NCBI GenBank assembly: GCA_903920975.1
Contig: CAIXNZ010000090.1
Span: 1-11,240, forward strand
Direction of reading: 5' to 3'
DNA length: 11,240 bases
Origin: Candidatus Falkowbacteria bacterium
GTDB lineage: Bacteria; Patescibacteriota; Patescibacteriia; CAIXNZ01
The notes beneath the pieces are model-generated. The model was not told where the DNA came from. It ran no database searches and worked only from the letters and a program-made list of their open reading frames with translations. Each line of letters starts with the position of its first letter. Within the stretch, counting starts at the first letter, position 1. Positions 5,150 to 10,416 of the stretch are shown here, piece after piece. The translations under genes were made by a program, and so were the position numbers.

Positions 5150-6343
5150 ATGCAATTAAAATCCATTGAACAAATTAAAAATCTAAAAAATAAGCGTGTT
5201 TTAGTACGCGTTGATTATAATGTTGATATTGCCAAAGGCAAAGTAACAGAACCCGAAAGAATTGACAGGACTTTCACTACTATTAATTATTTGGTCAAAA
5301 ATAAAGCTAAGGTAATATTGATGTCTCATTTGGGCAGGCCAGATGGACAGCGGGTGGAAAAATACAGCCTGAGGCCGGTTTATGGCTACTTAGACAAAAT
5401 GGCCAAAAGACCAGTTTATTTTGTTAATGATTGCATTGGCAATGCTGTTAAAGAAAAAATTGAGAAAATGCAGGCTGGGCAAATTTTGCTTTTAGAAAAT
5501 TTGCGATTTTATAGCGGGGAAGAAGCTAATGACACAAAATTTGCCCGCGAACTTGCTTCATTGGCTGACATTTATGTTAATGACGCCTTTGCCGTTGTGC
5601 ATCGCGCTCACGCTTCTGTAGCGGCAATAACCAAATATTCGCCGAGCTACGCAGGTTTTAATTTAATTGACGAGGTGAAGAATTTATCTAAATTATTGAG
5701 TGGCTTTAAAAAACCGGCCGTGGCAATCATTGGCGGAGTCAAAATTTCTACTAAGATTAAAGTTCTGGAGAATTTTTGCAAAAAATATGACAAGGTTTTG
5801 ATTGGCGGAGCACTTGCTAATAATTTTTTTGTCGCTAAAAAATATAATATTGGCCAATCAGTTTTTGAAGCAGATTTTGTAAAATTATCCAAACGCTTAT
5901 TGGACAAATACAAGAAAAAAATCATTCTACCCCTTGATGTTGTTATAACTAATAAAGTCGATATGAGCGGGAAAAAGGAAATCGTTAAAGTGACTGATTT
6001 AAATAAGCAAAAAAACAAAAAGTTTCTAATCGTTGATATTGGCACTAAAACAGAATTATATTTTGAAAGTTTTATTAAATCTTCCAGCACTTTTGTCTGG
6101 AATGGAGCCATGGGCGTATTTGAAATCCCGCAATTCGCTCACGGTAGTGATTATCTGGCCAGAATTATGGCCATGCAATCTCGGGGAGATGCTTATGGCG
6201 CAGTCGGCGGCGGAGACACCATAATCCTTATTAAGAGAAATTATTTGGAAAATTGGTATGATTTTGTTTCAACGGGCGGGGGAGCAATGCTGGAATTTCT
6301 GGAAGGTAAAGTTTTACCCGGCATTAAACCACTAGTAAGATGA
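5150..6343 (+). CDS. pgk: Phosphoglycerate kinase
   Basis: Motifs VLVRVDYNV, MSHLGRP, LLENLRF and the C-terminal STGGGAMLEFLEGK. Start placed at ATG 5150 (MQLKSIEQ) rather than the TTG at 5123. Confidence 0.93.
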   Translation: MQLKSIEQIKNLKNKRVLVRVDYNVDIAKGKVTEPERIDRTFTTINYLVKNKAKVILMSHLGRPDGQRVEKYSLRPVYGYLDKMAKRPVYFVNDCIGNAVKEKIEKMQAGQILLLENLRFYSGEEANDTKFARELASLADIYVNDAFAVVHRAHASVAAITKYSPSYAGFNLIDEVKNLSKLLSGFKKPAVAIIGGVKISTKIKVLENFCKKYDKVLIGGALANNFFVAKKYNIGQSVFEADFVKLSKRLLDKYKKKIILPLDVVITNKVDMSGKKEIVKVTDLNKQKNKKFLIVDIGTKTELYFESFIKSSSTFVWNGAMGVFEIPQFAHGSDYLARIMAMQSRGDAYGAVGGGDTIILIKRNYLENWYDFVSTGGGAMLEFLEGKVLPGIKPLVR

Positions 6344-8658: not shown

Positions 8659-8668
8659 ATTTGATGAA

Positions 8669-8786
8669 GAGCGAAAACGGCTGTTATCATTGTTGTAGAG
8701 ACGCGCCATGGCGCGTCTCTACGGCGTACGCAAACCGTTGTAGAGACGCATTGCAATGCGTCTCTACGTTCTGGCCGTTTTCGCCC
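8669..8786. repeat. Clamped composite palindromic element E2 (GCGAAAACGGC...GCCGTTTTCGC) enclosing two tandem 28-nt perfect palindromes
   Basis: The outer 11-bp inverted repeat is 8671..8681 / 8774..8784. The inner palindromes are GTAGAGACGCGCCATGGCGCGTCTCTAC (8695..8722) and GTAGAGACGCATTGCAATGCGTCTCTAC (8740..8767). Confidence 0.85.
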
Positions 8787-8795
8787 ACAAGAACC

Positions 8796-8824
8796 TTGAC
8801 AAAATTAAATTTTTGCTCTATACT
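8796..8824 (+). promoter_or_regulatory. Sigma70 promoter of the 63-aa ORF cassette
   Basis: TTGACA (8796..8801), 17 nt, TATACT (8819..8824). Confidence 0.75.
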
Positions 8825-8830
8825 TTTAAA

Positions 8831-9019
8831 TCGAACCTTAAAAATATCTCTTGCTGAAAGGACAAGAGATTAAAAATATTGACCTCCGGTTATTGTTTAT
8901 TCCTGTATCATCGAGAAAAACTTCTCCCCGGATTATGAACGCCAAAAATGAAAAGGGCGAACAAAAAAGGGGAAAGGACAGGAACAAACTAACCGGCAAG
9001 TAATTGCCAAGGAGGTCTT
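8831..9019 (+). promoter_or_regulatory. Structured 5' leader, copy L1 (SD-sequestering; candidate cis-regulatory RNA)
   Basis: Non-coding stretch between promoter and ATG. It has a hairpin 8846..8870. GACCTCCGGTT (8881..8891) is complementary to AACC (8991..8994) and to the SD GGAGGTC (9011..9017). A junction hairpin GGCAA-GTAA-TTGCC lies at 8995..9008. It is homologous to 9727..9898. Confidence 0.65.
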
Positions 9020-9211
9020 ATGTTGAGATTTTCGAAGATGAGCGATGAGGAGATTAAGGAGTTGATGGCTAAGCCTATATCCAAGGAAGACGCAGATAGG
9101 TTGCACAAGATCAATGAGGAAGACAGATGGATGCTTTCTATGTTTCTAATTAGTGAAGCATCCAGTGAAGAACGAGCGTCCGGTAAAGCGAAGCCAAAAC
9201 GCAAGAGATAA
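9020..9211 (+). CDS. 63-aa highly charged hypothetical protein with Lys/Arg-rich tail (KAKPKRKR)
   Basis: ORF track. AAGGAGGTC lies 2 nt upstream of the ATG. It has a dedicated promoter and terminator. Confidence 0.7.
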   Translation: MLRFSKMSDEEIKELMAKPISKEDADRLHKINEEDRWMLSMFLISEASSEERASGKAKPKRKR

Positions 9212-9223
9212 CTTTTGCATTCA

Positions 9224-9252
9224 AGGCCTGCTGCAAAGCGGGCCTTTTTTTT
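9224..9252 (+). terminator. Rho-independent terminator of the 63-aa cassette
   Basis: AGGCCTGC (9224..9231) / GCGGGCCT (9238..9245) followed by a T-run. It is near-identical to the terminator at 10388..10416. Confidence 0.8.
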
Positions 9253-9262
9253 ATTCCAATTA

Positions 9263-9691: not shown

Positions 9692-9720
9692 TTGACAAAA
9701 TATAATTTTTGCGCTAAAAT
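9692..9720 (+). promoter_or_regulatory. Sigma70 promoter of paralogue cassette 3
   Basis: TTGACA (9692..9697), 17 nt, TAAAAT (9715..9720). Confidence 0.75.
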
Positions 9721-9726
9721 ACCAAA

Positions 9727-9898
9727 TCATGAATCTTAAAAATATCTCTTGCGAAAGGACAAGAGATTGGAAATATTGACCTCCGGTTATTGTTATTCCC
9801 AAACCCAAGCCGCCAAAAAAGAAGAGGCGAAAAGAAGTGGGGAAAGAATTGGGAACAATAACTCAAACCGGCAAAGTAATTTGCCAGGGAGGTCTGAA
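9727..9898 (+). promoter_or_regulatory. Structured 5' leader, copy L2 (SD-sequestering; candidate cis-regulatory RNA)
   Basis: Homologous to L1. It has a hairpin 9744..9767, anti-SD GACCTCCGGTT at 9778..9788, junction hairpin GGCAAA-GTAA-TTTGCC at 9870..9885 and SD GGAGGTC at 9888..9894. Confidence 0.65.
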
Positions 9899-10372
9899 AT
9901 GGAAATCGAATTACAAATTGTTAGTGTTGAAAAAACTCACACCGTAATAGTTGATTACAATAAATCTCTTAAAGAGATGATAGCGCTTGGTGATTTTGAC
10001 GGGGTCGATCCAGAGATTATCGAGGTTGAACCATTTATAATTCAGGGTACTGACCAGCGAACGATGGAACTCTATTTGGCTATATTCAATCGTCATCCGG
10101 TCTCTGATAATGAGGCTACTGACAAACTCAGAAATGATGGATTTGAGCCAGCCGGAATCGAGTTTATAATTGCGCTTGGCGCTGTATGGATGATGCCTTC
10201 CAGAGAAATAATGATCTGGTCACTTCAGGAAGGCTCGGGACATTATAATCCTGTTTGGCCAGGCCTTGCTGTCAACGAGAATGGAAAATGCATTGTACTT
10301 GATAGTTGGTCACCTTGGGACGACCATTGTCCTGGTCGCCTCGGCTATTATTTGGTTTTTAAAAAACAATAG
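9899..10372 (+). CDS. Paralogue family member P3 (157 aa), most divergent copy, ending YYLVFKKQ
   Basis: ATG at 9899 follows GGGAGGTC. The ORF-track start at 9749 (TTG) would translate the conserved leader, whose counterpart L1 has stops in that frame. Shared motifs: VIVDY, KEMI, FD, FIIQG, EL, PAGIEFIIALGAVW. Confidence 0.8.
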   Translation: MEIELQIVSVEKTHTVIVDYNKSLKEMIALGDFDGVDPEIIEVEPFIIQGTDQRTMELYLAIFNRHPVSDNEATDKLRNDGFEPAGIEFIIALGAVWMMPSREIMIWSLQEGSGHYNPVWPGLAVNENGKCIVLDSWSPWDDHCPGRLGYYLVFKKQ

Positions 10373-10387
10373 ATATTTTCGAAATTA

Positions 10388-10416
10388 AGGCCTGCTGTAA
10401 AAGCGGGCCTTTTTTT
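10388..10416 (+). terminator. Rho-independent terminator of paralogue cassette 3
   Basis: AGGCCTGC (10388..10395) / GCGGGCCT (10403..10410) followed by a T-run. Confidence 0.8.

What the first reader, a model, noticed from the sequence alone, without database searches (positions are those of the whole stretch)
8831..9019. Long structured 5' leader that pairs an anti-SD mimic with its own Shine-Dalgarno (copy L1): candidate new cis-regulatory RNA
About 190 nt of non-coding RNA lie between a strong promoter (8796..8824) and the ATG at 9020. Four elements can be read directly. (i) A 5' hairpin ATCTCTTG (8846..8853) / CAAGAGAT (8863..8870) with loop CTGAAAGGA. (ii) GACCTCC (8881..8887) is the exact complement of GGAGGTC (9011..9017), the SD of the downstream ORF. 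So the upstream strand mimics the 16S anti-SD CCUCC, and the adjacent GGTT (8888..8891) complements AACC (8991..8994). (iii) A hairpin GGCAA-GTAA-TTGCC (8995..9008) is wedged between the two 3' half-strands, giving a three-way-junction-like layout. (iv) The enclosed ~100 nt are strikingly purine-rich (GCCAAAAATGAAAAGGGCGAACAAAAAAGGGGAAAGGACAGGAACAAA) and carry a CGCC/GGCG stem (8940..8943 / 8956..8959). Further complementarity (TTGTT / AACAA, CCGGTTA / TAACCGG) offers alternative registers, which is what a switching element would need. I cannot match it from memory to a riboswitch consensus (T-box, preQ1, ZTP, c-di-GMP I/II, guanidine I-III, fluoride, SAM classes). SD occlusion by a distal conserved strand is the classic layout of translational riboswitches, RNA thermometers and protein-titrated leaders.
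Basis: partly seen in the sequence, partly recalled or inferred. Interest (0 to 1): 0.78.

Follow-up and report, generated by a model that had tools for sequence, protein, structure and literature searches.

The report
Structured mRNA leader masking its ribosome-binding site
A ~170-190-nt RNA leader, found in five copies in three related uncultured Patescibacteria genomes and in no known RNA family, folds so that an upstream CCUCC strand locks away the ribosome-binding site of the gene behind it; it looks like a real translational "clamp", but what opens it is unknown and it does not look like a classic riboswitch or thermometer.

Summary
The leader (8831-9019) folds into the described layout: 5' hairpin P1, then a long bulged hairpin domain. 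The closing helix of that domain pairs GACCUCC+GGUU with AACC...GGAGGUC (the SD), with hairpin P3 at the junction (z = -5.5).

It recurs. A second copy lies at 9729-9898 in the window, two in MAG STA_35 and one in an ENA contig. All five sit between a conserved sigma-70-type promoter and a start codon, before three unrelated proteins of unknown function.

Stems are far better conserved than loops. P4 carries three compensated base pairs, and three G.U changes fit only the + strand. Rfam 15 has no match.

The switching interpretation is weak:
- The SD helix is predicted closed (P >= 0.92) from 10 to 60 C.
- Opening it costs 11-13 kcal/mol, and no alternative partner for the anti-SD strand exists.
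- The enclosed purine-rich loops vary in length and sequence, so there is no conserved ligand pocket.

Best reading: a new, narrowly distributed SD-sequestering leader that is OFF by default and probably released by a trans-acting factor binding its highly conserved 5' strand. With five sequences, covariation statistics are weak. Interest is moderate.

The parts
8796..8824 (+). Sigma-70-type promoter of copy L1 (TTGACA-17-TATACT)
   Evidence: 11 of 12 matches. The same TTGACA-17-TAnAnT arrangement precedes all five copies.
8831..8845 (+). 5' tail of the leader (..GAACCUUAAAAAU), conserved and unpaired
   Evidence: Alignments. The TSS is inferred from the -10 box and is not mapped.
8846..8870 (+). 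P1 hairpin: ATCTCTTG / loop CTGAAAGGA / CAAGAGAT. The loop always ends in AGGA.
   Evidence: The 8 base pairs are kept in all five copies. One U-A to U.G change in L014 fits RNA pairing on the + strand only.
8871..8880 (+). J1/2 linker (UAAAAAUAUU), largely conserved
8881..8892 (+). Anti-SD strand GACCUCC (P2 5') plus the extension GGUUA (P2x 5')
   Evidence: Invariant in all five copies. Pairing probability with the SD is >= 0.92 at 10-60 C.
8900..8906 (+). P4 5' strand, TTCCTGT
   Evidence: It pairs with ACAGGAA at 8978-8984. The other copies have TTCCCAA/TTGGGAA, so three base pairs are compensated.
8907..8925 (+). Insertion ATCATCGAGAAAAACTTCT, shared only with the STA_35 L006 copy ('long form')
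8926..8972 (+). Apical part: P5 (CCCC 8926-8929 / GGGG 8969-8972) enclosing P6 (CGCC 8940-8943 / GGCG 8956-8959) with an A-rich loop and a purine-rich J6/5
   Evidence: The stem cores are invariant. The loops are variable in length and sequence but 86-95% purine after P6.
8978..8994 (+). 3' strands: ACAGGAA (P4 3'), CAAAC, and TAACC (P2x 3')
8995..9008 (+). P3 junction hairpin GGCAA-GTAA-TTGCC
   Evidence: W_L2 has one extra A-U pair. The STA_35 copies have 4 base pairs and a 6-nt loop.
9011..9017 (+). Shine-Dalgarno GGAGGTC, which is also the P2 3' strand
   Evidence: Exposing the RBS costs 16.4 kcal/mol, the highest of 14 + strand genes in the window.
9020..9211 (+). Downstream ORF (63 aa, acidic with a basic tail GKAKPKRKR, no known family). 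Orthologues are present in STA_35, L046 and L050.
9223..9256 (+). Intrinsic terminator that closes the L1 transcription unit
9692..9898 (+). Second copy (L2). Promoter 9692-9720; P1 9744-9767; anti-SD 9778-9784; GGTT 9785-9788; P4 9796-9802 / 9849-9855; P5 9804-9806 / 9839-9842; P6 9811-9814 / 9826-9829; AACC 9866-9869; P3 9870-9885; SD 9888-9894. It lies upstream of ATG 9899.
   Evidence: CM score 168 bits
9899..10372 (+). ORF downstream of L2 (157 aa). It is a member of a large uncharacterised family and a paralogue of the ORFs at 1445-1903 and 2069-2563.

Best explanation
This is a lineage-restricted structured mRNA leader found in Falkowbacteria-like Patescibacteria. It acts in cis as a translational clamp.

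Each copy is transcribed from its own conserved sigma-70-type promoter. The RNA forms a 5' hairpin (P1) and then a long bulged hairpin domain (P2-P2x-P4-P5-P6) with a side hairpin (P3). The closing helix of that domain pairs an invariant upstream strand (GACCUCC+GGUU) with the gene's own Shine-Dalgarno sequence (GGAGGUC).

The clamp is thermodynamically strong, so the default state is translation OFF or very low. No alternative fold, conserved ligand pocket or melting behaviour is seen. I therefore think release needs an external macromolecule. The most likely candidate is a trans-acting RNA or protein that recognises the near-invariant 5' part (tail, P1 with its AGGA loop, J1/2 and the anti-SD strand). 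Binding could occur in the window when that strand is still single-stranded, before the SD, 100-130 nt further on, has been transcribed.

The same promoter-plus-leader module sits in front of at least three unrelated accessory genes, so it would define a small co-regulated set.

Shown: the sequence features, the recurrence, the predicted fold, the conservation pattern and the compensatory changes.
Inferred: that translation is repressed, and that a trans factor relieves the repression.

My probability that it is a functional SD-sequestering cis element is about 0.65. My probability that the trigger is specifically a trans-acting RNA or protein is about 0.35.
For: - Same architecture and strong folds in all five copies: MFE -51 to -60 kcal/mol, z = -5.5 and -3.7 for the two window copies.
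- SD:anti-SD pairing probability is >= 0.92 in all copies at 10-60 C.
- Exposing the RBS costs 16.4 (L1) and 15.7 (L2) kcal/mol, the two highest values among 14 + strand genes in the window.
- There are five distinct copies in three genomes, always in the order promoter, leader, SD, then 4-7 nt to the ATG, and in the same orientation. They precede a 63-aa, a 157-aa and a 331-aa protein with no shared family.
- In the structure-guided alignment, 187 of 188 pair cells are canonical. P4 has three compensated base pairs, P3 gains a paired A-U, and three one-sided changes give G.U on the + strand, which would be A.C on the - strand.
- The tool count on the CM alignment gives 97.6% paired against 35-51% for slid controls.
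- Paired columns are invariant in 65 of 73 cases against 47 of 89 for unpaired columns (Fisher p = 4.5e-7).
- Between the window organism and STA_35, enolase third codon positions are only 45% identical and third positions of the 63-aa ORF are 68% identical. Leader stems are 93% identical.
- In the nascent transcript the anti-SD strand is unpaired in all five copies.
- In L050 the orthologous small gene has an unrelated leader that also masks its SD, through a local CCUCC-AAGGG-GGAGG hairpin. SD masking therefore appears to be the conserved property for this gene.
Against: - Only five closely related sequences exist. Most pairs never vary, and covariation is not statistically compelling: 2 pairs with changes on both sides in the tool's count, and 33 of 500 shuffles do as well.
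- There is no expression, TSS or probing data.
- No candidate trans-acting partner was found in the roughly 75 kb of DNA available from the three motif-carrying genomes.
- High similarity among copies could partly reflect recent duplication, transfer or gene conversion rather than selection. The 63-aa cassette is less diverged than the housekeeping genes.
- The clamp may never open, in which case it is a constitutive attenuator.
- Core genes of this lineage lack SDs, so the weight of SD pairing in initiation here is uncertain.
Confidence: 0.62

Rival explanations
1. It is a small-molecule riboswitch. The enclosed purine-rich three-way-junction domain would be an aptamer, and ligand binding would stabilise (OFF) or disrupt (ON) the SD-containing closing helix.
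For: The layout, with the SD inside the closing helix of a multi-helix domain, resembles translational riboswitches. There is no Rfam match, so it would be a new class. The stem cores of P5 and P6 and a GGGG tract are invariant.
Against: - The interior junctions and loops, where a pocket would lie, vary in length (P6 loop 10-19 nt, J4/5 0-19 nt, J6/5 9-13 nt) and in sequence. They evolve about as fast as the third codon positions of the adjacent ORF.
- The closing helix is already very stable without a ligand (11-13 kcal/mol), so a ligand-stabilised OFF switch is unnecessary.
- No alternative fold exists for an ON switch.
- The downstream genes are unrelated and of unknown function.
Confidence: 0.12
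2. It is a constitutive attenuator or mRNA-stability element. The clamp never switches. It only keeps translation of these strong-SD accessory genes low, and the compact fold protects the 5' UTR from RNases.
For: The helix is very stable with no predicted second state. The genes carry unusually strong SDs in a lineage whose core genes have none, so damping could be the whole function.
Against: A 150-185-nt conserved multi-helix leader with an invariant 5' part and a conserved P1 loop (AGGA) is much more than is needed to weaken an SD; a weaker SD would do. The sequence of unpaired 5' segments is conserved.
Confidence: 0.18
3. It is an RNA thermometer. The SD helix would melt on a temperature upshift.
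For: SD occlusion by an upstream strand is the thermometer principle. The long prfA-type thermosensor is a precedent (general knowledge).
Against: P2 is seven perfect Watson-Crick pairs (five G-C), stacked on further helices. Pairing probability is >= 0.92 even at 60 C in all five copies. There are no mismatches, G.U pairs or U-rich anti-SD typical of ROSE or fourU elements.
Confidence: 0.03
4. It is a leader activated by processing. An endonuclease (of the RNase III, E, Y or J type) would cut the long hairpin or its A-rich loops, removing the anti-SD strand and so activating translation, as described for adhE or tisB in E. coli (general knowledge).
For: The domain is a long, nearly continuous helix with large single-stranded A-rich loops that would be good endonuclease targets. 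No intramolecular way to open the clamp is predicted.
Against: The helices are interrupted every 4-9 base pairs, so the domain is a poor canonical RNase III substrate. There are no data on RNases or on 5' ends. After a cut the duplex would still have to dissociate.
Confidence: 0.1
5. It is incidental structure in a repeated or mobile DNA module, such as a MITE-like element with inverted-repeat ends GACCTCCGGTT...AACC..GGAGGTC or a duplicated promoter cassette. Similarity among copies would reflect recent spread, not RNA function.
For: There are multiple near-identical copies within and between genomes. The leader type is not congruent with gene orthology: W_L1 shares an insertion with L006 rather than with its positional orthologues, and the L050 orthologue has another leader. 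The region is rich in REP-like palindromes.
Against: - All five copies have the same orientation and the same position, with the 3' repeat arm serving as the SD 4-7 nt before an ATG.
- Stems are significantly more conserved than loops.
- The G.U changes are strand-specific.
- No copies occur in other contexts in about 160 kb of related DNA.
- There is no match in the phage or plasmid collections.
- No target-site duplications were seen.
Confidence: 0.07

Closest known systems
E. coli rpoS 5' leader (inhibitory stem opened by the sRNAs DsrA, RprA and ArcZ with Hfq) and similar 'anti-antisense' activated mRNAs
   Same: An upstream strand far from the start codon pairs with the ribosome-binding region, giving a default-OFF state. 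The inhibitory strand is the conserved target. A-rich (ARN-like) single-stranded tracts lie nearby. This is the mechanism I consider most likely (general knowledge).
   Different: There is no sequence or structure homology and no Rfam hit. No activating sRNA was found in the DNA available, and it is not known whether this lineage has Hfq. Here the module is multi-copy, sits in front of unrelated genes and is much shorter.
Translational riboswitches whose closing or pseudoknot helix contains the SD (e.g. SAM-II, preQ1-II, thiM TPP)
   Same: The SD is part of the structured domain. There is a three-way-junction-like layout and no terminator.
   Different: The junction and loop nucleotides are not conserved. 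The sequestering helix is stable on its own and no alternative platform exists. The gene association is incoherent. There is no Rfam match.
RNA thermometers (ROSE, fourU, the Listeria prfA 5' UTR)
   Same: The SD is masked by an upstream complementary strand within the 5' UTR.
   Different: The helix here is seven perfect pairs extended by further stems, and it is predicted closed up to 60 C. Thermometers rely on weak, mismatched helices.
Structured, translationally inert 5' UTRs that need processing or a standby site (tisB, zorO, adhE)
   Same: The primary transcript has a sequestered RBS, and there are long single-stranded purine- or A-rich stretches that could serve as a standby or cleavage site.
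   Different: The downstream proteins are not small hydrophobic toxins. No antisense RNA gene is apparent.

Membership tests
Any Rfam 15 family | Covariance-model score at or above the family's gathering threshold | tested here: not met
   There were no hits at gathering thresholds over the whole window. Permissive E <= 10 scans of L1, L2 and the L006 copy gave only terminator-like or spurious hits well below threshold.
Metabolite riboswitch | Highly conserved nucleotides in the junctions and loops that form a ligand pocket, with variable covarying stems | tested here: not met
   The pattern is the opposite. Stems are 89-100% identical and unpaired columns 70-81% identical. The interior loops vary in length and sequence.
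Metabolite riboswitch | An expression platform with mutually exclusive structures | tested here: not met
   Forcing the SD open costs 10.7-13.4 kcal/mol, changes nothing else, and gives the anti-SD strand no alternative partner in any copy.
Metabolite riboswitch | Association with genes of one pathway or transport function | tested here: not met
   The downstream genes are three unrelated proteins (63, 157 and 331 aa). None has a Pfam, NCBIfam, PHROG or PADLOC match.
Metabolite riboswitch | Direct, specific ligand binding | not testable with these tools
   This needs in-line probing, ITC or SHAPE.
RNA thermometer (ROSE / fourU / prfA type) | A marginally stable SD helix that melts within the physiological temperature range | tested here: not met
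   The pairing probability of each of the 7 SD:anti-SD pairs is >= 0.92 at 60 C in all five copies.
sRNA- or protein-opened inhibitory leader (rpoS type) | An upstream strand sequesters the RBS in the default fold | tested here: met
sRNA- or protein-opened inhibitory leader (rpoS type) | A trans-acting RNA complementary to the inhibitory strand, or a cognate binding protein | tested here: inconclusive
   No complement of 9 nt or more to the conserved 5' strand was found outside the leaders themselves in the window, L006, L014/L061 and L046. However, only about 75 kb of these genomes could be read.
Autoregulatory (protein-titrated) leader | The downstream gene product binds its own leader | not tested
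   The downstream genes differ between copies. The 63-aa basic-tailed protein is the only gene linked to the motif in all three genomes, which makes it a candidate, but nothing here tests binding.
MITE / REP-type repeated DNA | Copies in varied orientations and contexts, terminal inverted repeats with target-site duplications, and no strand-specific constraint | tested here: not met
   All five copies lie between a promoter and an ATG in one orientation. The G.U substitutions are strand-specific. No stray copies were found in related loci.
Transcription attenuator | An intrinsic terminator within the leader | tested here: not met
   There is no + strand terminator-like site between promoter and ATG. 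P3 is followed by AAGGAGG, not by a U-run.

The most novel reading that the evidence does not exclude
The leader is the sensor element of a regulon specific to candidate phyla radiation (CPR) bacteria. It would be a new class of RNA switch whose invariant 5' half is recognised by a dedicated trans-acting factor. That factor could be an sRNA, the co-occurring 63-aa basic protein, or a ribosome subpopulation able to use SDs in a lineage whose core genes are SD-less. The factor would turn on a set of lineage-specific accessory genes. Alternatively the leader binds an unknown small ligand.
Probability: 0.2. Interest if true: 0.7.

Novelty: new member of a known kind. Interest (0 to 1): 0.42.

Why it matters
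Almost nothing is known about post-transcriptional regulation in Patescibacteria (the candidate phyla radiation, CPR), which cannot be grown alone. A conserved, multi-copy leader that locks the ribosome-binding site of accessory genes would give a concrete handle on how these reduced genomes control lineage-specific genes. The core genes of this lineage appear to dispense with Shine-Dalgarno sequences altogether, which adds interest. The element is also an easy target for in-vitro tests such as toeprinting and SHAPE. Set against that, it is so far confined to three related metagenome-assembled genomes, its genes are of unknown function and its trigger is unknown. For now it is one more orphan structured-RNA candidate rather than a surprise.

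Tried and rejected
**Searches for more copies**
- Scan of GTDB genomes with the 17-mer TTGACCTCCGGTTATTG: 15 hits, of which only two are real, both in MAG STA_35.
- JGI metagenome scan with a P1 + anti-SD pattern: 28 hits, all by chance, mostly the ABC-ATPase signature motif on the other strand. With hindsight the pattern was too strict, since L046 has AAAGACCTCC.
- Three scans of viral contigs: only chance matches.
- Protein route: the 157-aa protein is an orphan in the word-indexed database. The 63-aa family gave one new genome, L046.
- Enolase-guided retrieval of syntenic loci from relatives (85%, 82% and 75% enolase identity): no further copy by nhmmer or by the covariance model. The one weak CM hit (L006 5826-5956, E = 0.11) is a terminator region.

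**Readings rejected**
- Leader peptide or small ORF: an ATG near the 5' end is present in 3 of 5 copies only, and stops occur in all frames.
- Pairing of the 5' tail with the start-codon region: predicted in some copies but not conserved.
- Transcription attenuation: there is no terminator in the leader.
- Integron attC site, retron, or TnpB/IscB guide RNA: no integrase, reverse transcriptase or nuclease gene lies nearby in any locus.

**Function of the downstream genes as a clue**
- No hit in Pfam, NCBIfam, PHROGs or PADLOC.
- The AF2 model of the 157-aa protein is good with a 29-sequence alignment (pLDDT 85), but it has no significant PDB fold match. The best is E = 0.09, TM 0.40, a C-type-lectin-like domain.
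- A profile search of PDB sequences found nothing.

**Other**
- Literature searches found no description of such a leader in CPR bacteria.
- blastn against the phage and plasmid collections found no match.

Full report
**Observation**

- promoter TTGACA-17-TATACT at 8796-8824 (11 of 12 matches);
- P1: ATCTCTTG 8846-8853, loop CTGAAAGGA, CAAGAGAT 8863-8870;
- GACCTCC 8881-8887, the exact complement of the SD GGAGGTC at 9011-9017;
- GGTT 8888-8891 with AACC 8991-8994;
- P3: GGCAA-GTAA-TTGCC 8995-9008;
- CGCC 8940-8943 with GGCG 8956-8959;
- ATG at 9020.

RNAfold gives exactly this architecture. The MFE is -60 kcal/mol and the dinucleotide shuffles average -38.1 +/- 4.0 (z = -5.5, none as good). 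There is no + strand terminator in the leader and no open reading frame runs through it.

**Recurrence**

The window holds a second copy (L2, about 9729-9898) behind its own TTGACA-17-TAAAAT promoter and in front of a different ORF (ATG 9899, 157 aa). It aligns with L1 and folds the same way.

A 17-mer scan of one genome per GTDB species found two more copies, both in the Patescibacteria MAG STA_35:
- L014 lies upstream of the orthologue of the 63-aa gene, in the same SIMPL-eno-[cassette]-gpmI synteny.
- L006 lies upstream of an unrelated 331-aa ORF between murJ and lepA.

The 63-aa protein family led to a fifth copy in an ENA contig (L046). Identical duplicates (L045, L047, L061) add nothing.

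Nothing else turned up:
- The JGI metagenome scan, three viral scans, and blastn against phages and plasmids found only chance matches.
- nhmmer and a covariance model (R1) found no further copy in about 160 kb of syntenic DNA from relatives with 75-85% identical enolase.

The family is therefore real but, as far as these collections show, confined to a narrow clade. Its closest named relative by enolase is a Candidatus Falkowbacteria MAG.

**Structure evidence**

All five copies fold into the same parts:
- P1;
- P2 (anti-SD:SD, invariant);
- P2x (GGUU/ARCC);
- the junction hairpin P3;
- P4;
- P5 (CCC/GGG core);
- the apical P6 (CGCC/GGCG) with an A-rich loop.

In a structure-guided alignment, 187 of 188 pair cells are canonical. 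The informative changes are:
- P4 is TTCCTGT/ACAGGAA in W_L1 and TTCCCAA/TTGGGAA elsewhere, so three adjacent pairs are compensated.
- P3 gains an A-U pair in W_L2 and shortens in the STA_35 copies.
- Three one-sided changes give U.G: in P1 of L014, and in P2x and P4 of L006. They would be A.C mismatches on the other strand, so the + strand RNA is the folded molecule.

The tool count on a CM-made alignment gives 97.6% paired cells, against 35-51% when partners are slid. It finds only two pairs with changes on both sides, and 33 of 500 shuffles do as well. With five close relatives the covariation statistics are weak.

Conservation is more telling. Paired columns are invariant in 65 of 73 cases and unpaired columns in 47 of 89 (Fisher p = 4.5e-7). 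Between the window organism and STA_35, identities are as follows:

| Sites compared | Identity |
|---|---|
| Enolase third codon positions | 45% |
| 63-aa ORF third codon positions | 68% |
| Leader unpaired columns | 70% |
| Leader stems | 93% |

The stems are therefore under purifying selection even relative to the cassette's own near-neutral sites.

**What it does**

The SD is predicted to be locked:
- Each of the seven SD:anti-SD pairs has probability >= 0.92 at 10, 20, 37, 50 and 60 C in every copy.
- Exposing the ribosome-binding region costs 16.4 (L1) and 15.7 (L2) kcal/mol, the highest of 14 + strand genes in the window.
- Forcing the SD open costs 10.7-13.4 kcal/mol, leaves the rest of the fold intact and leaves GACCUCC simply unpaired. 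No copy offers it another partner.

W_L1 uses GGUUA/UAACC, while the others prefer GGUUAUUG/CAAUAACU with CAAACC looped out. Both registers keep P2 closed, so they are not a switch.

The enclosed loops are purine-rich (86-95% after P6). They vary freely in length and sequence: the P6 loop is 10-19 nt, J4/5 is 0-19 nt and J6/5 is 9-13 nt. This is the opposite of a riboswitch aptamer, where junction nucleotides are the most conserved.

The three downstream proteins are unrelated and match no family in Pfam, NCBIfam, PHROGs or PADLOC. The 157-aa protein belongs to a large uncharacterised family with 2,721 cluster representatives. Its AF2 model is confident (pLDDT 85) but has no significant PDB fold match. 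Gene context therefore gives no ligand clue.

What is conserved outside the stems is the 5' part: the tail GAACCUUAAAAAU, the P1 loop ending in AGGA, J1/2 and the anti-SD strand with its flanks. In the nascent transcript this strand is single-stranded until the SD, 100-130 nt further on, is made.

I therefore commit to this reading: a default-OFF translational clamp released by a trans-acting macromolecule that recognises the conserved 5' strand, as sRNAs do for the rpoS leader. I put about 0.65 on a functional SD-sequestering cis element and about 0.35 on that specific trigger.

The rivals are a constitutive attenuator or stabiliser, a processing-activated leader, a small-molecule riboswitch, a mobile-repeat artefact and a thermometer. 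They are scored in the Rival explanations section.

No candidate partner RNA was found, but only about 75 kb of the three genomes could be read.

One supporting observation comes from L050 (enolase 82% identical). There the orthologous small gene has an unrelated GC-rich leader of about 170 nt that also masks its SD, with a local CCUCC-AAGGG-GGAGG hairpin. Rfam has no hit for it either.

**Context**

Each cassette is a self-contained unit of promoter, leader, ORF and a near-identical terminator.

Leader type and gene are not congruent:
- W_L1 shares a 19-nt insertion with L006 rather than with its positional orthologues.
- The paralogues of the 157-aa gene at 1445 and 2069 use a second leader family.
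- The L050 orthologue uses a third.

The promoter-leader modules thus seem to be exchangeable.

The core genes of this lineage have no recognisable SD. This holds for the housekeeping genes of the window and for 22 of 26 genes in STA_35. The hypothetical accessory genes, including all motif-bearing genes, have strong AGGAGG-type SDs.

**Comparison and novelty**

The element works like known SD-occluding leaders. It matches no Rfam family and no description I could find in the literature library. It fails the tested defining features of riboswitches, thermometers, attenuators and MITEs; the details are in the membership table.

I file it as a new member of a known kind, namely structured SD-sequestering 5' leaders. 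Interest is moderate. The element is real and new and sits in a poorly understood phylum. However, it is narrowly distributed, has weak covariation power, precedes genes of unknown function and has no identified trigger.

Noticed in passing
window 1316-1447 and 1954-2071; L048 4699-4794; L061 2870-2952: There is a second promoter-plus-leader family: TTGCCTTGACA...GATAATAT, then the hairpin CCATATCA-nnn-TGRTATGG. It precedes the two paralogues (152 and 164 aa) of the 157-aa gene and is conserved in two related genomes in front of other hypothetical genes. It does not obviously mask the SD.
   Followed up: partly
window, all + strand genes; L061 (STA_35), 26 genes: Core genes (hydrogenase, rsmE, hypA, pgk, SIMPL, eno, gpmI, fpg and others) have no Shine-Dalgarno sequence; in L061 this is true of 22 of 26 genes. 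The small hypothetical accessory genes have strong AGGAGG or GGAGG SDs. This suggests a low-SD lineage in which SD-led genes form a special class.
   Followed up: partly
L050 11400-11595: The orthologue of the 63-aa gene (79 aa here) carries an unrelated GC-rich leader of about 170 nt. A local CCUCC-AAGGG-GGAGG hairpin in it also covers the SD. There is no Rfam hit and no second copy in the fetched loci.
   Followed up: partly
window 8661-8790; L048 11304-11424; L050 11312-11395 and 17315-17371; L061 2802-2858 and 19021-19055: A REP-like element made of two palindromes (GTAGAGACGC...GCGTCTCTAC) is framed by the inverted repeat GCGAAAACGGC / GGCCGTTTTCGCC. It is conserved at the eno-gpmI junction whether or not a cassette is present, and it is repeated elsewhere.
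   Followed up: partly
window 1231-1300, 2662-2740, 4790-4862: A second palindromic repeat family (..CCTGAGCTTGTCGAAGG.. / ..CTTCGACAKGCTCAGCATGACA) sits in intergenic spacers next to the starts and ends of core genes.
   Followed up: no
window 9223-9246 and 10387-10411; L006 about 5246-5275; L046 4060-4090 and 4955-4985; L050 11273-11300: Nearly the same terminator hairpin, (A)AGGCCTGCTG(Y)AAA(A)GCGGGCCTTTTTTT, closes many unrelated transcription units in these genomes. This suggests standardised cassette ends.
   Followed up: no
L046 4418-4530: A short unit with its own TTGACA promoter, two hairpins (one containing CACCUCC) and a terminator lies directly upstream of the motif's promoter. It could be a small RNA or the remnant of a cassette, and it is not found in the other loci.
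   Followed up: partly
window 9899-10372 (also 1445-1903 and 2069-2563): The 157-aa protein belongs to a large uncharacterised family. A profile search of the whole library finds 2,721 cluster representatives at E <= 1e-3, some as tandem duplications and one fused to a DnaJ domain. AF2 gives pLDDT 85 with 29 sequences. There is no Pfam domain and no significant PDB fold match.
   Followed up: yes
window 9020-9211; L014 3434-3625; L046 4741-4943; L050 11592-11831: The small acidic protein with the invariant basic tail GKAK.KRKR is the only gene linked to the leader in all three motif-bearing genomes. It is a candidate RNA- or DNA-binding regulator, which is pure speculation.
   Followed up: no
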